Below, piece by piece: positions 3,480 to 20,741 of a stretch of 64,000 nucleotides of DNA (positions are counted from its first letter, which is position 1; every line of letters begins with the position of its first letter). Both the position numbers and the translations under genes were made by a program. This stretch comes from Escherichia phage PNJ1809-36: the sequence record MT944117.1; one strand, given 5' to 3'. The notes beneath the pieces were generated by a model. That model worked only from the letters and a program-made list of their open reading frames with translations. It was not told the DNA's origin and searched no databases.

Positions 3480-3836
3480 ATGAAAAAACTAATCTTAGCC
3501 ACATTGCTGGCTACCGTAAGCTTCACCACTTACGCTCAAAAATTTGTAGCAGTTAAAACGGATATTGGTAAAGATGTTGTGATCACAGGCAACAAATTTT
3601 ACTATACACCTGGGAATGGTGTTCTAGAAGAGTGCCAAGATGTTGAGGCATATACAGGAAAAGAAGATAACACGGAACGTCCTTTTTATTCGATTATAGC
3701 TACTTGCAAAAATGAAATAGTAGCTATTAAACAATACAAAGATGCCCCTGGAGGAGAGTACTTGTTAGTCAAGAATATTAAGAGTGAAAAAACTGCAAAG
3801 TTTACAGTAATTATTTTAAAAGGAGAAACGTTCTAA
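3480..3836 (+). CDS. secreted small protein with N-terminal signal peptide
   Basis: SD AGGAGGG + ATG 3480; MKKLILATLLATVSFTTYAQ signal-like N-terminus. Confidence 0.65.
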   Translation: MKKLILATLLATVSFTTYAQKFVAVKTDIGKDVVITGNKFYYTPGNGVLEECQDVEAYTGKEDNTERPFYSIIATCKNEIVAIKQYKDAPGGEYLLVKNIKSEKTAKFTVIILKGETF

Positions 3837-4975
3837 TGAAATACACTATTTTTGGAGATGTAGCTGTTGTAAATAAGGAATATGGCGTTGAAGCTAATAA
3901 ACTTCCTGCTGGAGTTTGGGTTGTCAACTGCGATCCGCACGGTAACTACTCTTTAGTGCGTGGCGAAAGTTTCTCTCTTCCGAACACTCTTTATGGGGAA
4001 ACTAAAGATCGCGCCGCACATGTTATTAAAACATTTGCTCGTCGTAGTAAAGAAGGTAAAAATACTGGGGTGTTACTGACAGGGACAAAAGGCAGTGGTA
4101 AGACGATGTTAGCTAAACTGATTAGCATGTCTCTAATGTCCACAGAAGGTTTAGGTATTCCAACCATTTTGGTTACACAGCCTTACACAGATGCTGGATT
4201 CTTAGAATTTATGAGTAAAATTACAGATCGTGCTGTTGTTTTATTTGACGAATTTGATAAAGTGTATGCTAAGAAAGAAGATCAGGAAGCACTGTTGACC
4301 TTGTTGGATGGAACAGGAAGTGGGAATAAACTTTACATCCTCACTAAAAATAGTGGTTATATCTCGGAATATTTTGTAAACCGTCCTAGTCGTATCTACT
4401 ACAGTTTCAATTACGATAAACTGTCTAGTGAAACTATGTTAGATTACTTGGATAAGAACTTGGTAAATAAAAAACACGTAGATAACTTCCAACGTTTATG
4501 GGATGTTAGCACAGAGTTGTCTTTCGATGTTATTCAAGGCATTGTAGAAGAATTGAATTTCTATCCAAAAATGACTTTTAAAGAATGTCTTGAAATGATG
4601 GGTATTTCTTTAGGCAATGATGCTAAATGGAATGTGGTTTCTATTGTAGCTAATGGCAAAACCTTGAAGGTGAATTGGATCAATAACTGGCACGACTTTA
4701 CCCCTACTAAGTTTTTGTCGGGTGCTTGTTCCTTGAACATCTATCTACAAAGCTTGAAAGATGATGAAGTGGAAGCAATGGAAACCAATAGTTATGTTAT
4801 CCTAGACGAAGATGGCGACCCACATATTGATCTATGTGCAACTGCTGATGGTCTAACTTGTGATCTGATTGAAGGTGGTAAGATCCTGGTGATGAGCACT
4901 ACACCAGGAAACACTCTGCGAGTGGTGCTGGAGCCTGTAACGCAGCGATCTACCACACTGGGTAGCGTATTCTGA
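3836..4975 (+). CDS. AAA+ family ATPase
   Basis: Walker A GTKGSGKT, Walker B VVLFDEFD, sensor ILTKN; 379 aa. Confidence 0.75.
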   Translation: MKYTIFGDVAVVNKEYGVEANKLPAGVWVVNCDPHGNYSLVRGESFSLPNTLYGETKDRAAHVIKTFARRSKEGKNTGVLLTGTKGSGKTMLAKLISMSLMSTEGLGIPTILVTQPYTDAGFLEFMSKITDRAVVLFDEFDKVYAKKEDQEALLTLLDGTGSGNKLYILTKNSGYISEYFVNRPSRIYYSFNYDKLSSETMLDYLDKNLVNKKHVDNFQRLWDVSTELSFDVIQGIVEELNFYPKMTFKECLEMMGISLGNDAKWNVVSIVANGKTLKVNWINNWHDFTPTKFLSGACSLNIYLQSLKDDEVEAMETNSYVILDEDGDPHIDLCATADGLTCDLIEGGKILVMSTTPGNTLRVVLEPVTQRSTTLGSVF

Positions 4976-4992
4976 TACAGCACAAATAGCTA

Positions 4993-5016
4993 AACCCGCT
5001 TCGGCGGGTTTTGTTA
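4993..5016 (+). terminator. rho-independent terminator (UUCG tetraloop)
   Basis: AACCCGC-TTCG-GCGGGTT followed by TTTGTT. Confidence 0.7.
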
Positions 5017-5044
5017 TATTGATTTCAGTTTAATAGGAAGAGAA

Positions 5045-6052
5045 TTGTTAGATATGCCAGTAAAGAAGAGTATTGAAACATATATGGAAGAATGTAAGCC
5101 GATAGCTGAGGCTAAAGGGATTACCATTCTCGGCACGTATGGAGAAGATAAAGGTGTGCATACGAAGATGATCAATCGTTGTGAGCATGGTCATGAATGG
5201 AATACTACAACGTTTCACAGTTTTAAAGATGGTCGAGGTTGTCCTAAGTGCGCCTACAGGGAACGTTCGAAAAAGAGAAGCAAAGCTATCACTATTCCAG
5301 ACCAGCAACACATACAAGATTTTATGAAGGTAGGTAAATTTAAGGAAGGCACTATTTTCACCAATACAGGAGAACGTAAAGGGTGTGATATAGTATGGAT
5401 GGTTGAATGTCCTGTTTGCTCTCATGATGAATATGTGGAAGCTGGGGTGTGTGATGGTAAATTCTATGCTACCGGAAGTCATCTTAAACGTGGGTGTCTC
5501 CCTTGCCGCTGTTCTACAAGTTACAAATACACAGAGGATCAGACCACCTATAGAACAAGAAAGGAAGTAGAAAGGAGAGGATATATATGGGTAGGATGGA
5601 TCGGTAAACCTTCAACAATGGGTAAGTTTAAATATGGATGTAAGGAGCACGGGGAACAGATAGGGCGTGCAGATGGTTTGCTACATAAGGGGAGTGGGTG
5701 TCCGCAGTGCGGGGGCCAAAACCAACAACAATGTTACATTAATCATATTTATGATGAAGATGGTATTCTTTGTGCACTGAAGTTTGGTATTGCCAATAGT
5801 AGTGATCGCCGTATCAAAGAACAGAATAGCCGCAATGTGTTTACTATGAGACAAGTTCAAGTGTGGCAGTTCCCCACTGTGAAGCAGTGCAAAAATTCAG
5901 AAAAGTATTGCAAAAAGGTGTTAGACACAGAAGCAGTGAGCAAATATGCTATGCCAGACGGCTACACAGAAACAGTGGAGCTATCTTGTCTGGCATCAAT
6001 ACAAAACATTTATAAACTTTATGGTGGAATATTACAGGAGGAAACATGTTAG
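5045..6052 (+). CDS. T5orf172/GIY-YIG-like domain protein with Cys-rich N-terminal repeats (homing-endonuclease-like)
   Basis: three GCPxC-type repeats; C-terminal KFGIANSSDRRIKEQNS resembles T5orf172 core; start may be TTG 5045 or ATG 5054. Confidence 0.55.
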   Translation: MLDMPVKKSIETYMEECKPIAEAKGITILGTYGEDKGVHTKMINRCEHGHEWNTTTFHSFKDGRGCPKCAYRERSKKRSKAITIPDQQHIQDFMKVGKFKEGTIFTNTGERKGCDIVWMVECPVCSHDEYVEAGVCDGKFYATGSHLKRGCLPCRCSTSYKYTEDQTTYRTRKEVERRGYIWVGWIGKPSTMGKFKYGCKEHGEQIGRADGLLHKGSGCPQCGGQNQQQCYINHIYDEDGILCALKFGIANSSDRRIKEQNSRNVFTMRQVQVWQFPTVKQCKNSEKYCKKVLDTEAVSKYAMPDGYTETVELSCLASIQNIYKLYGGILQEETC

Positions 6053-6411
6053 TTGACGTTCAAATTATGCGCAACGAAAGAATGGACTTCTTTGAAGCAG
6101 TAGAGAAACATCTGATCAGATGGGACTATGAATTTGTTCCTGCTGGATGTGGACCAGTAGAGCATTTAGCGGAAGACGATGATGTATACATGATCATTCG
6201 TCAAGTGTACCAGACAGACCAGTGTGAAGAAACTCCCGAACTGATTTTGTTTGAGTGTAAAGATCTTGCAAAATATTTTGACTATGGCGGAAAAGAGGGT
6301 CATAATCTCTCCAGATACAATAAACGTCTACTTATCTTAGACTACATGCGGAACAACAAACACAAACTCATCGACGCAGACGCAGTTTATGGCTACTGGT
6401 GGATGGATTAA
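6046..6411 (+). CDS. hypothetical protein (121 aa)
   Basis: SD CAGGAGG + ATG 6046. Confidence 0.6.
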   Translation: MLVDVQIMRNERMDFFEAVEKHLIRWDYEFVPAGCGPVEHLAEDDDVYMIIRQVYQTDQCEETPELILFECKDLAKYFDYGGKEGHNLSRYNKRLLILDYMRNNKHKLIDADAVYGYWWMD

Positions 6412-6424
6412 CAAAGGAGAAACT

Positions 6425-6613
6425 ATGGCACGTTTAGCAGATAACCCTGTATTCTACCCCGTTCTTGATCTTTATGATGAATTGACATATGTTGTGGAGC
6501 GGTATAATTACAATGAAGACCTCTTGGAGACAAACCTTAAAGTAGTTCTGATGAAAGCCTATCAGCAAGGGCAACGTGAAATTTTGGAGAGTATGAAAAA
6601 TGCGAATAACTGA
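6425..6613 (+). CDS. hypothetical protein (62 aa)
   Basis: ATG 6425 after SD AAAGGAG. Confidence 0.5.
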   Translation: MARLADNPVFYPVLDLYDELTYVVERYNYNEDLLETNLKVVLMKAYQQGQREILESMKNANN

Positions 6614-7142
6614 TGATTATGTATTCTTCTTTTCACATAAAGATGTTTTTAGTAATTGGTATATTGCACCCTTTACAGAAACCGAACCAAGTTACAATCA
6701 GACATTTAATTGTGTCGAACAATACATGATGTGGCGTAAAGCTTTGCTTTTTAATGATCACAACACTGCACAGGCTATTCTGACTCATAGCTTAAAACGA
6801 GAAGATGAGAAGATACAAGCTTATTACAAACGTATGGGTAGGGCAGTAGCAGGTTTCGATAACAAAATATGGGAAGAGAATCGTGAGCGTATTGTTATGC
6901 GAGGTTTATGCTTGAAGTATGTACAGAATCCAGACTTGTATGCCGATTTACGTCTATATCAATACAAAACATTTGTTGAAGCAAGTCCTTACGATAAGGT
7001 ATACGGAATTGGAATGGGGATGTATGAACCAGGGGTGCTAAACCCTGCCACCTGGAAAGGGCAGAATCTTTTAGGCAAATATCATAACAAACTGATCGAA
7101 ATACTTTTCCCAGACAAAATACCGCAAAGACGATATTTGTGA
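6600..7142 (+). CDS. NADAR-domain (YbiA/DUF1768-like) protein
   Basis: FSNWYIAPF, EQYMMWRKALLF, RMGRAV...W..NRE..VMRG...KY, YGIGMG...G.NLLGK blocks match the YbiA-family pattern. Confidence 0.75.
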   Translation: MRITDDYVFFFSHKDVFSNWYIAPFTETEPSYNQTFNCVEQYMMWRKALLFNDHNTAQAILTHSLKREDEKIQAYYKRMGRAVAGFDNKIWEENRERIVMRGLCLKYVQNPDLYADLRLYQYKTFVEASPYDKVYGIGMGMYEPGVLNPATWKGQNLLGKYHNKLIEILFPDKIPQRRYL

Positions 7143-7383
7143 TATTTTAACTTTTTTCATTTTTAGAACAAAGGTGTCACTTTGTAGCACAGAAATAAGG
7201 CTCCTACAGCACCGTAGAGAGCCTGTTATTTTGTCCTATACAAACCCTTATCTTTTTCAGTTTGCATCACTAGGATTCGATCTAAGTGGGTTCCTGAAGG
7301 TTTACCAATAAGATTAAAGGTTATCTCAAATTCCCACTACCTATTATCTCAAAAATCCCTCAAATTATTTAAACTTTTTAAGA

Positions 7384-7570
7384 ATTTACAAAAGTGAAAG
7401 TTGAAAACCAAAATTTAAAGTTTAGGAAAATTATCTTAAAATGTTAGATACAAAACAAAACTCAAAAGTCAAGGAAAATTTTAAAAATTTTGCGCGCCCA
7501 CAGTATTTAAAGTTTTTTTGCTTTTACAAAAATGAAAGTACAAAAGCAAAATTTAAAGTTTACAAAAATT
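7384..7570. repeat. two copies of a ~48-bp direct repeat (iteron-like)
   Basis: tttacaaaagtgaaagttgaaaaccaaaatttaaagtttaggaaaatt at ~7384 and a near-copy at ~7521. Confidence 0.7.
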
Positions 7571-7583
7571 TATGCAGATGGGA

Positions 7584-7698
7584 ATGAGAAGAGTTCTCAT
7601 ATGGAAATGCAAATGATAATGATTCGCATTTAGGTTTATAAATGAGATTGATTCTTATTTGATAAGGTAAATGATAATCATTCTCATTTAGAGAATGA
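7584..7698. promoter_or_regulatory. cluster of dyad-symmetric operator-like sites, Fur-box-like
   Basis: ATGAGAAgagTTCTCAT (7584-7600), AATGATAATGATTCGCATT (~7612), AATGATAATCATTCTCATT (~7669, 13-nt core identical to Fur box core AATGATAATCATT), CATTCTC-N5-GAGAATG (7679-7697). Confidence 0.4.
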
Positions 7699-7946
7699 CG
7701 CGCAGGGGCGGTGTTTGTCTCGCGCTCCCGTGTCCCCTCGCCATGTAATAAGAATAACAGATCCAGCCAGGAAAGCAAGCGATTATTTTATCTTTACATT
7801 TCTTTACAAATATATAGCGCCCAGCCTACCGGCGATCAACCTTCCAACCAGCGCCCTGGTATGTTAGCCCCGCCTTTACGCCGTGGGGTGGCGCTTCCTC
7901 TTCTGTATGTAAAACAGTATAAGCCCGATCCCTGGGCTTGTCAAGA

Positions 7947-18372: not shown

Positions 18373-18792
18373 ATGAACATTAAATCAAATAATCCAGCTT
18401 ACTCCTTCGATAACGCTTTTTGTCACGGTAGCGCCGCCAAAGGCTTCGAAATCGATGGTAAATTGGTTATCGTGAACGTTGACGGGGAAGAGGTTGCAGT
18501 ATATCCGGTAAACGATGTTAAAAGCCGTTTACAATGCCGCATGGATGTTACCGCATATCAGCTTGATCCGGTCCGTGTAGTTGCCCTGGTATTAGAGGAA
18601 GAGATCAAAGCAATGCATCATAGTAATAAGTTTATTGGTGACGCGCAGGATAATATGAACGTTTGCCGCCATAAAGTTAATGAAGCCTTGAAAGAATGCG
18701 GTTTTAAGGATCTGATGATTAAACGTGATGAAAAATTCCGCTTTCGTAATGACCTGGCAAACCGGATCTACTCAATCTATGAAGCGTTATAA
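18373..18792 (+). CDS. hypothetical protein (139 aa)
   Basis: ORF; SD AAAGGA. Confidence 0.65.
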   Translation: MNIKSNNPAYSFDNAFCHGSAAKGFEIDGKLVIVNVDGEEVAVYPVNDVKSRLQCRMDVTAYQLDPVRVVALVLEEEIKAMHHSNKFIGDAQDNMNVCRHKVNEALKECGFKDLMIKRDEKFRFRNDLANRIYSIYEAL

Positions 18793-18807
18793 TTGACAAC
18801 AAAACAA

Positions 18808-18833
18808 GGGCGCACCAAGCGCCCTTTCTTTTT
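18808..18833 (+). terminator. rho-independent terminator closing the early array
   Basis: GGGCGC-ACCAA-GCGCCC followed by TTTCTTTTT. Confidence 0.75.
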
Positions 18834-20366
18834 GCCCGAATAATGTTGATAGATTCCGCCTATGAAAAACCGACACAGAACAAAACTGAATAGATCGCGG
18901 TATCGAGCTAATCAACCATTAAACGAATAACCATACCTCCCAGGGTAACAGGTTGTTAGAGAGCCATTTAGAGCGGTTAAAATCGATCAACAACCAACAA
19001 CAAACCATCAAAAACACCCTTTTACCTCCTTTCTAGTGCAATGATAACCATTATCATCTATCCATGTTTATCTATGCAATATAAGTGCATAACTATAATG
19101 TTGATAATAGTTCGCAACAACTAACTAACCAACAACCTAAAACAATAAGCAAACTAATCATAATCAAAGGAATAATAGCAAGATGATTGATAACGACAAA
19201 CAATCAAACCATGATGAATACTAAGCAAGATAACGATAACACGACAAAACAACCAACTAACGAACAATAACAAACGAAACCATTAAAATAACAACTATTA
19301 GCAAAATAGTGCCTGAATGAAATCATTACAAAACGAATCATTCACAGGATCATCATTAGCACGCTATGCCGGACACATAGCGAGCTAATAATAAGCCAAC
19401 TACACCCCAACAATCATAACCATCGGTGATGGTTATTTCTTGTTACTGCGTAGCTTGCAATAATTGCAAGCGTAATGACGCTTACACTTATTGCGCTGGC
19501 TTATTATTAGCATTATATGTAATTACCAAGATCATAACATTAGCGCAATAACAATAATCATTGTGGTAATTACAAGATGAAATAATCGCTATCGCTCAAA
19601 GATTATTAGCAAGATGAATAATTGCACGTAGCAACATGAGCGAATAGCGACAGGTTGCATAGTGTGCACATAGATGTACACGCAGTGTATAAACATACAG
19701 GAAAATAAAGGCTAATCTTTTGGGGGCGAATACTATCGCGTAGCGATATGTTGAGCATCTTCTCTTAAACGTAAATAAAATCAGAAAATTCTTGATTTAT
19801 TTTAATTTTTATGTTAATAAACGTTTAAATAATAATCATTCTCATATGAATAATAGTCTGCTTGTCATGAGCGGGATTAGTTGACAATGTTCCGTCATAT
19901 GATGAGGTTGCCAAACCATTGATAAATAAGTGTTTGTGTGATTTATAATCAAGCGGCCCACCTTGTCGCTATGTTGGCATGAGCCTTGCATAAGTCATTG
20001 AATACGAATGATAATTATTCTCATTCGCATGATATTTGGGAATTGTCGCTGCGTGGACCTGACGGCCCGAAAATTCGCGTTAAGCACTTCTTACGTATGT
20101 GCCATGATTTTTGCCATATGATATTGATTCTACTAGATATTCTTGCCATGATTGCCATGAAACAGGGTGTCCCGAAATAATCTCTCCCTGTAGATATTTT
20201 GGGTTACTTTTTATACAAGAGTGGGGTGTCAAAAATAATTGGTATATATGGGATAATTGATAGGAATCCCCTATGATAATTCGATTGTAATTCCCTAAGA
20301 TTGATCGTATGATGTTGGTGATTGATGATTGCCATGAAAGATGGCTAACGATGAGAGGAGATTATC
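18834..20366. other. gene-free 1.5-kb region, strand-skewed A+C-rich (CAA/AAC-rich, G/T-poor on plus strand)
   Basis: no credible ORF; long tracts such as aaccaacaacaaaccatcaaaaacaccc and acaaaacaaccaactaacgaacaataacaaacg. Confidence 0.7.
20100..20337. repeat. five copies of TTGCCATGA-type motif including a perfect tandem pair
   Basis: TGCCATGA at ~20100, TTGCCATATGA ~20111, TTGCCATGATTGCCATGA 20143-20160, TTGCCATGA 20329-20337. Confidence 0.6.
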
Positions 20367-20741
20367 ATGCAAGAGAGTAAAAATGTTCCGTTGAGTAGTG
20401 CAACATTGCTTCGCTTCTATAAAGCATGGATTGCCAACTATCCTGCAATGAATCGCACAACGAGTGGCTTATGTGGTTGTCTGGTAGATTATGTAGATGA
20501 TTTTGTTGGTGAGACAACTAGAGAAGAAGATAGAAGATGGCGTGATCATTTGTTGGACCGTTTGAAATATGAAATGAGGAAACAATTTACATGTGCAGGG
20601 CTGGACTACAATCTTCCGTTCAATGCAGATTGCATGGATTACCTTTCAGAGTGTATAAACTTGGCGTGTCATACCAACACGTTACGTCTTCAATGGGTGA
20701 AAGACAGAATCGAAGATGCAAATAATGCTTGCATTGAATAA
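20367..20741 (+). CDS. paralog family member 1 (GLC...PF...WVKDR family)
   Basis: SD GAGAGGAG; FYKAWIANYP..SGLCGCL...LPFN...LRLQWVKDRIED. Confidence 0.65.
   Translation: MQESKNVPLSSATLLRFYKAWIANYPAMNRTTSGLCGCLVDYVDDFVGETTREEDRRWRDHLLDRLKYEMRKQFTCAGLDYNLPFNADCMDYLSECINLACHTNTLRLQWVKDRIEDANNACIE

What the first reader, a model, noticed from the sequence alone, without database searches (positions are those of the whole stretch)
18834..20366. 1.5-kb gene-free region with extreme A+C strand bias and TTGCCATGA repeats
Between the early array terminator and the next gene there is no credible ORF. The plus strand is dominated by CAA/AAC-type words with very little G or T over several hundred bases, followed by Fur-like dyads and five TTGCCATGA copies including a perfect tandem pair at 20143-20160. 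A strand-asymmetric non-coding tract this long in a compact phage genome is unusual; it could be an origin with iterons, a genome-terminus-proximal region, or the template for a structured or C/A-rich non-coding RNA.
Basis: seen in the sequence. Interest (0 to 1): 0.65.

Follow-up and report, generated by a model that had tools for sequence, protein, structure and literature searches.

The report
Phage genome end with terminal repeat
This gene-free stretch is where the linear DNA of a phAPEC8-like E. coli phage begins and ends (a 329-bp terminal repeat plus its non-coding flanks), and beside the repeat sits a previously undescribed, strongly conserved Y-shaped nucleic-acid fold.

Summary
Window 18834-20366 has no credible gene, contains the most A+C-rich stretch of the 64 kb, and carries Fur-box-like dyads and TTGCCATGA repeats. 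The window is a Phapecoctavirus (phAPEC8-like) genome opened away from its physical ends. By homology to phages with determined termini (Schickermooser, exact 329-bp repeat; BME3, PhageTerm), window 19754-20082 is the direct terminal repeat. Both edges carry GTTR^AGC. So 18834-19753 is the right-end non-coding arm and 20083-20366 the left-end leader. TTGCCATGA is conserved only among close relatives and is unlikely to be an iteron. The conserved parts are the repeat edges, the Fur-like boxes (17/19 to consensus in phage VEcB) and a roughly 165-nt Y-shaped structure at 19344-19521. That structure shows covariation in 24 distinct sequences. All wobble pairs fall on the minus strand. It has no Rfam match. 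A diverged copy sits at the same relative position in rV5. I read it as a cis element of concatemer processing or packaging, or a minus-strand RNA; these tools cannot decide. The terminus itself is known for this subfamily; the structured element appears new.

The parts
18806..18835 (.). Bidirectional intrinsic terminator that ends the rightward array of small early genes
   Evidence: Stem of 8 pairs (6 G-C) followed by a T run on both strands. Annotated as a terminator in phAPEC8 and Schickermooser. Conserved across genera.
18836..19343 (+). G-poor, A+C-rich untranslated tract of the right genome arm; on the minus strand it is C-poor and G+T-rich
   Evidence: It holds the top three A+C windows of the 64 kb and has GC skew down to -0.38. 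In 13 lineages the homologous tract has G 9-15% and C/G 1.2-2.1. A>T is seen mainly in Phapecoctavirus. rV5 has the same G-poor tract.
19037..19112 (.). Conserved block: a Fur-box-like palindrome (19037-19055, 15/19), then TATGCAATATAAGTGCATAACTATAAT, then a second weaker dyad
   Evidence: One search gives the score. Searches show the block conserved across genera. In Justusliebigvirus both dyads read AATGATAATCATTCT.
19344..19521 (-). Conserved Y-shaped structured element. Closing helix P2 pairs 19384-19398 with 19497-19511. Arm B includes hairpin 19416-19436. Arm A includes the invariant palindrome 19453-19471. The adjoining hairpin P1 pairs 19362-19368 with 19376-19382.
   Evidence: 24 distinct sequences, 60 pairs, 94% of cells paired, 18 pairs with compensatory double changes, 0/500 shuffles reach the observed values. 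Four helices are 100% paired on the minus strand with 15 G.U cells. The plus strand has no G.U and 12 A.C cells in RNAalifold's 38-pair version. Minimum free energy is -57 to -68 kcal/mol on the minus strand and -43 to -51 on the plus strand in 8 lineages, with the same Y shape on the minus strand throughout. One copy in the window and in each fetched locus. No Rfam match. A diverged copy occurs in rV5 on the same strand and at the same relative position.
19522..19753 (.). Variable spacer ending in a G run (19722-19726), a small G+C hairpin ATCGC-GTA-GCGAT (19735-19747) and ATGTTG (19748-19753) just before the left cut site
   Evidence: The spacer carries indels and replacements even among close relatives. 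The unit 'small hairpin + TGTTG^AGC' is kept in most lineages compared, with a different hairpin sequence in each, and is repeated 2-3 times in Klebsiella phages.
19754..20082 (.). Direct terminal repeat, present once in this permuted sequence. The left physical end starts at AGCATCTTCT (19754). The right physical end stops at CGCGTTA (20082).
   Evidence: The Schickermooser record has an exact 329-bp repeat at both ends that maps to 19754-20082; its paper reports 328 bp. The BME3 PhageTerm repeat of 342 bp has homologous edges. The VEcB record starts exactly at the left edge. Other records break at 19753 or 20081/2. Both GTTR^AGC sites, 321-412 bp apart (329-354 in most), are found in nearly every lineage compared. 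The repeat contains Fur-like boxes at 19825-19843 and 20004-20028.
20083..20366 (+). Left-end leader before the first gene (ATG at 20367). It holds TTGCCATGA-type repeats (20099, 20143, 20152, 20329), a promoter-like TTGCCA-18-AATAAT (20152-20181), a GGGTGTC..AAATAAT motif (20165-20181, with a second diverged copy near 20224-20240) and a 24-nt tandem (20252-20301).
   Evidence: The GGGGTGT..AAATAAT motif pair is shared with Justusliebigvirus VEcB. TTGCCATGA is not shared.

Best explanation
The region is the physical terminus (concatemer junction) of a phage that packages unit-length DNA with short direct terminal repeats, as T7 does. The window is an assembly opened elsewhere, so the two ends are joined and the repeat appears once, at 19754-20082. 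I infer that the packaging enzyme cuts replicated concatemers at two related sites, GTTG^AGCA (19753|19754) and GTTA^AGCA (20082|20083), and that the 329 bp between them is copied so each genome carries it at both ends. To the left lies the right-end non-coding arm. It consists of the terminator, a roughly 500-nt G-poor/C>G tract, a Y-shaped structure about 240 bp from the repeat, and a variable spacer. To the right lies the roughly 285-bp left-end leader with the first early promoter candidates. For the G-poor tract I infer that it lets host Rho stop any rightward read-through before it reaches the junction. The same composition would make a leftward transcript Rho-resistant. For the Y element I infer a cis role in making ends: either the minus strand folds so that helix P2 presents a paired 3' end that primes copying of the repeat, or the fold marks the site where packaging starts. 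The Fur-like boxes most likely bind host Fur, with unknown consequence. The location of the repeat, the conserved edges and the structure with its strand bias are shown here. Every functional step is inference.
For: The window is 96-97% identical to phAPEC8-like phages, which have the same unannotated gap. The exact 329-bp terminal repeat of Schickermooser maps to 19754-20082 and is reported in its paper. A separate paper states that Stephanstirmvirinae genomes end in direct terminal repeats. BME3's PhageTerm repeat of 342 bp has the same edges to within 1 nt. VEcB starts at the left edge, and 3A1_SA_NWU, Mt1B1_P17, BI-EHEC and WPEC2 break at these edges. Two GTTR^AGC sites 321-412 bp apart (329-354 in most) occur in nearly all lineages compared. 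For the structure, see the covariation and controls, the strand asymmetry and the rV5 homolog at the same relative place. The G-poor tract is conserved in composition where the sequence has diverged. rV5 encodes a Pol A polymerase and a gp4-like primase-helicase whose homologs include podovirus primase/helicases. A Vequintavirinae phage has a 514-bp repeat with packaging that its authors call T7-type.
Against: No reads or virion DNA of this particular phage were available, so the ends are placed by homology only. Some GenBank relatives are deposited as circular or break elsewhere in the gap. One Vequintavirus paper infers headful packaging. The short boundary motif is not statistically unusual on its own in the window. 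No convincing sigma-70 promoter or Rho site could be demonstrated. The T7 hairpin-intermediate model is recalled from memory (Chung, Nardone and Hinkle 1990) and could not be checked in the library.
Confidence: 0.8

Rival explanations
1. The Y-shaped element is the structured 5' domain of a minus-strand non-coding RNA. That RNA would run leftward through the G+U-rich tract to the bidirectional terminator at 18826-18806, giving roughly 700 nt. It would act in trans, or as a packaging or replication-primer RNA. The terminal location would then be incidental or related to packaging.
For: All 15 non-Watson-Crick cells in four helices are G.U on the minus strand. Several G.U pairs are invariant or nearly so (89-145 in all 24 sequences, 38-76 in 22). 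With RNA parameters the minus strand is 14-19 kcal/mol more stable than the plus strand in 8 lineages. With DNA parameters the gap is only 2-6 kcal/mol. The multi-helix junction has conserved unpaired joiners. A -10-like hexamer (TATAAT, TACAAT, TAGAAT, GATAAT) lies 0 or 16 nt upstream of P2 in several lineages. The C-poor downstream tract would escape Rho. The terminator works on the minus strand too.
Against: No promoter is conserved in position and no -35 element is present. No terminator closes the conserved unit. There is no Rfam relative. No transcript data exist for this subfamily. G.T is also the best tolerated DNA mismatch.
Confidence: 0.4
2. The region is a replication origin in which TTGCCATGA repeats (or GCTAAT repeats) are iterons for an initiator protein and the A+C tract is an unwinding or R-loop zone.
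For: TTGCCATGA-type words cluster locally, all in one orientation. ATTAGC(A) is about 10-fold enriched, with extra direct GCTAATAATA copies upstream of the element in Klebsiella phages and Tr1. The tract has strong GC skew. T4 origins use R-loops (from memory).
Against: TTGCCATGA is not conserved beyond close relatives and is irregularly spaced. GCTAAT repeats are absent from rV5, although the structure is kept there. No initiator gene is adjacent. An RNA from either strand would not be purine-rich, which disfavours stable R-loops.
Confidence: 0.12
3. The inverted repeats are only binding sites for dimeric proteins on duplex DNA (Fur, terminase small subunit, a phage repressor) and no nucleic-acid fold forms.
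For: The palindrome GCTTGCAAYAATTGCAAGC and the outer 10 bp of P2 are invariant within Stephanstirmvirinae. Fur-like palindromes occur throughout the region.
Against: Hairpins P1 and P3 and the inner part of P2 change sequence completely while keeping their pairing. In rV5 even the outer part of P2 is replaced by a different complementary pair. The one-sided wobble pattern has no explanation on duplex DNA.
Confidence: 0.08

Closest known systems
T7-type short direct terminal repeats and concatemer junction (T7/T3; reported for the relatives Schickermooser, BME3 and KPP-1)
   Same: A unit-length genome with a few-hundred-bp exact repeat at both ends. The repeat lies in non-coding DNA and is flanked by repeat-rich, gene-free sequence. 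The phages compared encode a Pol A polymerase and a gp4-like primase-helicase. In T7 an inverted repeat roughly 200 bp left of the right-end repeat forms a hairpin intermediate (from memory).
   Different: The hosts' RNA polymerase is used and there are no T7-type promoters. The repeat is 329 bp in a roughly 150-kb myovirus. The nearby structure is a three-way junction with covariation rather than a simple palindrome. The cut-site motif GTTR^AGC is specific to this group.
phi29 packaging RNA (pRNA)
   Same: A structured nucleic acid of about 120-170 nt built around a three-way junction, with paired 5' and 3' ends, encoded near a genome end of a phage.
   Different: No match to any Rfam model, pRNA included. 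phi29 uses protein-primed ends without a terminal-repeat junction. No evidence here that the element is transcribed or is part of the motor.
E. coli Fur boxes
   Same: Matches of 14-17 out of 19 to GATAATGATAATCATTATC, including the exact central palindrome AATGATAATCATT. The boxes are clustered and conserved in position across genera.
   Different: They lie in a lytic phage's terminal repeat and non-coding arms, not over a recognised iron-regulated promoter. Binding is untested.
Rho-dependent terminator (rut) regions
   Same: A long untranslated stretch that is C-rich relative to G, lying downstream of an intrinsic terminator.
   Different: It is mostly A-rich rather than C-rich, far longer than a typical rut site, and no termination data exist.
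The 'non-coding' box on the rV5 genome map (Kropinski et al. 2013)
   Same: A 2.6-kb gene-free gap after the homolog of the gene at 18373-18792, with a G-poor tract and a diverged Y element on the same strand.
   Different: The rV5 gap is longer, lies between convergent gene arrays, and lacks both the GTTR^AGC motif and the GCTAAT repeats. Its termini were not determined here.

Membership tests
Direct-terminal-repeat genome terminus (T7-type packaging) | The same sequence is present at both physical ends of virion DNA | tested here: met
   Met in relatives, not in this phage's own virion DNA. The Schickermooser record has an exact 329-bp repeat at both ends that maps to 19754-20082 (paper). 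The first and last 342 nt of the BME3 record are identical.
Direct-terminal-repeat genome terminus (T7-type packaging) | Fixed read starts and about twofold coverage over the repeat in sequencing of virion DNA | not testable with these tools
   No reads were available. Reported for BME3 and KPP-1.
Direct-terminal-repeat genome terminus (T7-type packaging) | Conserved, specific cut sites at both edges of the repeat | tested here: met
   GTTR^AGC occurs at both edges, 321-412 bp apart (329-354 in most), in nearly all lineages compared. Independent records begin or end exactly there.
Iteron-type replication origin | Regularly spaced direct repeats conserved among relatives, with an adjacent initiator gene and unwinding element | tested here: not met
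   TTGCCATGA spacing is 112, 125, 44, 9 and 177 bp. The motif is lost in phiWec181/188 and was not seen in the one Justusliebigvirus leader read, VEcB. No initiator gene is adjacent.
Fur box | Close match to the 19-bp consensus, more often than chance | tested here: met
   Five loci with at least 14/19 in 1.5 kb; 17 in the window against 3.8 expected. A 17/19 match in the VEcB repeat.
Fur box | Binding by Fur-Fe2+ and iron-dependent regulation | not testable with these tools
   Needs a gel-shift or ChIP experiment and infection of a fur mutant.
Any described RNA family (Rfam 15, including phi29 pRNA and Y-like RNAs) | Covariance-model score at or near the family's gathering threshold | tested here: not met
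   No match at gathering thresholds over the 64 kb. Only chance-level matches at E up to 10 over 18700-20450.
Structured functional RNA in general | Secondary structure supported by compensatory changes beyond controls | tested here: met
   18 of 60 pairs show double changes and 94% of cells are paired. No shuffle out of 500 reaches the observed values, and the slid controls give 25-54% paired.
Structured functional RNA in general | The element is transcribed (promoter, terminator, detected transcript) | tested here: inconclusive
   Only weak -10-like hexamers in varying positions. No transcript data for the subfamily.
Rho-dependent terminator region | Untranslated stretch of at least about 80 nt with C>G and little structure | tested here: met
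   C/G of 1.7-2.0 over roughly 460-520 nt with no ORF. Structure content of the tract and actual termination were not tested.

The most novel reading that the evidence does not exclude
The Y-shaped element is a new class of phage nucleic-acid machine part shared by Stephanstirmvirinae and Vequintavirinae. It would be either a minus-strand RNA that takes part in genome packaging or primes replication at the genome end, or a self-folding DNA strand that primes duplication of the terminal repeat. Host Fur bound inside the repeat would tie end processing or early expression to iron status.
Probability: 0.35. Interest if true: 0.8.

Novelty: new variant of a known kind. Interest (0 to 1): 0.58.

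Why it matters
Most of the roughly 130 deposited genomes of this therapeutic-phage group are opened arbitrarily and leave this gap blank. Placing the terminal repeat and its cut-site motif gives a rule for orienting and annotating them correctly. How short terminal repeats are duplicated during packaging is understood only for T7 and T3. A conserved, strand-specific structure about 240 bp from the repeat, kept across two myovirus subfamilies, gives that question a defined target for mutagenesis. Near-consensus Fur boxes inside the repeat of a strictly lytic phage would, if bound, link infection to host iron status.

Tried and rejected
Coding potential: ten small ORFs had no PHROG match. The 45-aa minus-strand ORF in the tract is broken by an indel that is not a multiple of three in phiWec188. 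tRNA and tmRNA: none found. Rfam: nothing. TTGCCATGA as iterons: rejected for lack of conservation. 'The tract is more conserved than the genes': rejected. In phiWec188 the upstream genes are equally about 95% identical, so this is a mosaic block. ZCKP1 does keep the tract while its upstream genes are replaced. Sigma-70 promoters: counts are no higher than in shuffles, and no promoter is conserved upstream of the element on the minus strand. The two minus-strand promoter-like sites inside the repeat do not keep their spacing in VEcB (my reading). Boundary motif as a window-wide signal: not significant alone. Pattern scans for the P2 arms: only 20 of the 116 IMG/VR and metagenome stretches were real homologs. 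KPP-1 (514-bp repeat): a weak model hit about 257 nt from the repeat whose fold is not convincing, so inconclusive. bov25_3: the record break is not a demonstrable terminus. Literature on the T7 hairpin intermediate and on Fur boxes in lytic phages: the searches returned nothing usable.

Full report
**Identity and context**

The window is a Phapecoctavirus (phAPEC8-like, Stephanstirmvirinae) genome. The query 18700-20500, which spans the finding, is 96-97% identical to SKA64, Ro121c4YLVW and phAPEC8. In phAPEC8 the homologous stretch (5513-7021) is also unannotated. It lies between a predicted terminator and gene 0018. Small genes on the + strand run into the region from the left and out of it to the right.

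**Checking the observation**

- No ORF inside 18834-20366 exceeds 64 aa, and ten of the small ORFs have no PHROG relative.
- The three most A+C-rich 200-nt windows of the whole 64 kb are 19101-19400, at 70-73% against a mean of 50.2% and sd of 4.7. The composition over 18960-19420 is A 208, C 104, G 51, T 98.
- TTGCCATGA has three exact copies and three with one mismatch, all on the + strand, between 19862 and 20337. The window has 29 such matches in all. The tandem pair is real.
- Five sites in the region match the E. coli Fur consensus at 14/19 or better. The window has 17 such loci against 3.8 expected.

**What the region is**

A distant BLAST showed that many independent GenBank records break inside this gap at the same two points.
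- Query position 1248/1249, which is window 20081/20082: Schickermooser, Mt1B1_P17, BI-EHEC and WPEC2.
- Query position 920, which is window 19753: 3A1_SA_NWU.

The Schickermooser paper reports a 328-bp terminal repeat. Its record carries an exact 329-bp repeat at both ends that maps to window 19754-20082. BME3 is a Justusliebigvirus whose 342-bp repeat was determined with PhageTerm. The first and last 342 nt of its record are identical, and its edges are homologous to those of Schickermooser to within one base. The VEcB record begins exactly at the left edge. A recent paper states that Stephanstirmvirinae genomes end in direct terminal repeats.

Both edges carry the same short motif:
- Left edge: ...ATGTTG^AGCATCTTCTCTTAAACG.
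- Right edge: ...GAAAATTCGCGTTA^AGCAC.

Nearly every lineage I could compare has these two sites, 321-412 bp apart and 329-354 bp in most. The lineages were Phapecoctavirus, the phiWec group, Justusliebigvirus, Citrobacter Tr1, several Klebsiella phages, and IMG/VR and metagenome contigs. In most lineages the left site is preceded by a small G+C hairpin whose sequence differs between lineages. In Klebsiella phages and Tr1 the hairpin-plus-TGTTGAGC unit is repeated two or three times about 67 nt apart.

The window is therefore a permuted assembly in which the ends are joined:
- 18834-19753 is the right-end non-coding arm.
- 19754-20082 is the terminal repeat.
- 20083-20366 is the left-end leader.

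**What is conserved and what is not**

The gap of 1.5-2.0 kb exists across the subfamily, and its first 500-650 nt are always skewed. Comparing 13 lineages, the shared trait is G depletion on the + strand, with G at 9-15% and C/G at 1.2-2.1. The strong excess of A over T is seen mainly in Phapecoctavirus.

TTGCCATGA is kept only in the closest relatives. It is replaced in phiWec181/188, and I did not see it in the Justusliebigvirus leader I read, that of VEcB.

The Fur-like boxes are conserved in position across genera. VEcB's repeat contains GCAAATGATAATCATTATC, a 17/19 match that includes the exact central palindrome.

The near-identity of the tract between the window and phiWec188 is part of a larger mosaic block that includes the upstream genes. 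It does not by itself show selection on the non-coding DNA.

**A conserved structure**

The most conserved block across genera is 19344-19521. I collected 24-25 distinct versions from phage records, IMG/VR and metagenomes.

RNAalifold on the + strand found helices with compensatory changes in 12 of 38 pairs. On that strand every non-Watson-Crick cell but one was A.C or C.A, and none was G.U. Read on the minus strand, the four helices P1-P4 are 100% paired in all 24 sequences, with 15 G.U cells.

Single-sequence folds of eight lineages give the same Y shape on the minus strand.
- A 14-15-bp closing helix holds two long arms.
- Minus strand: minimum free energy of -57 to -68 kcal/mol and z-scores of -8.8 to -11.
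- Plus strand: -43 to -51 kcal/mol, with less consistent folds.

The full Y structure plus the adjoining hairpin comprises 60 pairs.
- 94% of cells are paired.
- 18 pairs show double changes.
- No shuffle out of 500 reaches the observed pairing or covariation.
- The slid controls give 25-54% paired.
- Several G.U pairs are invariant or nearly so.

A covariance model finds exactly one copy in the window and in each fetched locus. No Rfam family matches.

The model also hits rV5 and bov25_3 (Vequintavirinae) at E about 1e-6. The hits are on the same strand, 660-890 nt downstream of the homolog of gene 18373-18792, inside the gap that the rV5 paper drew as a 'non-coding' box. In rV5 even the part of the closing helix that is invariant in Stephanstirmvirinae is replaced by a different complementary pair. 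The minus-strand fold is again the more stable one, at -91.9 against -81.7 kcal/mol. The structure is therefore older than its sequence. That rules out plain protein-binding sites on duplex DNA as the whole explanation.

**How it most likely works**

What is shown:
- the position of the repeat and its conserved edges;
- the structure and its strand bias;
- the conserved composition of the tract;
- the conserved Fur-like boxes.

What is inferred:
- Concatemers are cut at the two GTTR^AGC sites, and the 329 bp between them is duplicated, as in T7-type packaging. rV5 encodes a Pol A polymerase and a gp4-like primase-helicase. A Vequintavirinae phage, KPP-1, has a 514-bp repeat with packaging its authors call T7-type.
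- The G-poor, C>G untranslated tract after the intrinsic terminator is what a Rho loading zone looks like. It would stop rightward read-through before the junction. The same composition would make a leftward transcript resistant to Rho.
- The Y element has two readings that these tools cannot separate.
  - One reading is minus-strand DNA. In T7, as I recall from Chung, Nardone and Hinkle (1990), an inverted repeat about 200 bp left of the right-end repeat forms a hairpin intermediate that allows the repeat to be copied. I could not verify that paper. Here helix P2 would place a minus-strand 3' end in a paired position, ready to be extended rightward through the repeat.
  - The other reading is a minus-strand RNA. 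The strand asymmetry in stability is far larger with RNA parameters (14-19 kcal/mol) than with DNA parameters (2-6 kcal/mol). Invariant G.U pairs and conserved junction nucleotides are also typical of RNA.
  - Against the RNA reading, I found no promoter conserved in position, and no transcript data exist for the subfamily.

**Novelty**

Short terminal repeats are already reported for relatives, so the main identity of the region is ordinary. The following appear undescribed in the papers and libraries I could search:
- the cut-site motif;
- the Y-shaped element shared by two subfamilies, with its one-strand wobble signature;
- the near-consensus Fur boxes inside the repeat.

Noticed in passing
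window 7143-7710: A second gene-free gap. It holds a pair of roughly 45-nt direct repeats (about 7392-7440 and 7530-7575) and a cluster of Fur-box-like sites at 7609-7691. The best site is GTAAATGATAATCATTCTC, 16/19, which is the best match in the window.
   Followed up: partly
L134 (rV5, NC_011041.1) 3921-6524, element at 4580-4807 on the minus strand: The 2.6-kb 'non-coding' box on the rV5 genome map contains a diverged homolog of the Y-shaped element and a G-poor tract in the same order and strand as in the window.
   Followed up: partly
window 18373-18792: The last gene before the gap encodes a 139-aa protein that is 89-92% identical to rV5 gp159 and its Vequintavirus homologs. This suggests the gene and the adjoining non-coding arm are exchanged or retained as a module between the two subfamilies.
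   Followed up: no
L020/L023 (BME3, PP239276.1): The deposited BME3 record repeats its first 788 nt at 146169-146956, in addition to the 342-nt terminal repeat. Its 'DTR-L' feature (146957-147298) does not coincide with the true terminal copy. This looks like an assembly or annotation artefact.
   Followed up: partly
L012, L018, L019, L009 (Klebsiella phages KP13-26, FKP3, KP2025; Citrobacter Tr1), spacer between element and repeat: The unit 'small G+C hairpin + TGTTG^AGC' and the word GCTAATAATA(C) are each repeated two or three times at intervals of about 45-67 nt. This looks like an array of spare or decoy cut or binding sites.
   Followed up: no
hits: Records labelled Campylobacter, Acinetobacter and Pseudomonas phages are 89-95% identical to these E. 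coli phages across the region. This suggests mislabelled hosts or contaminating coliphages in those data sets.
   Followed up: no
window 20165-20181 and about 20224-20257; L011 (VEcB) about 414-440 and 491-530: A paired motif, GGGGTGT(N)3-4AAATAAT...GGTATA, in the left-end leader is conserved between Phapecoctavirus and Justusliebigvirus although TTGCCATGA is not. It may be an early regulatory or promoter element.
   Followed up: partly
L137 (Klebsiella phage KPP-1, MT438396.1) 3787-3953: There is a weak covariance-model hit (17.7 bits) about 257 nt from KPP-1's experimentally defined 514-bp terminal repeat, pointing away from the repeat as in the window. The fold is not convincing.
   Followed up: partly
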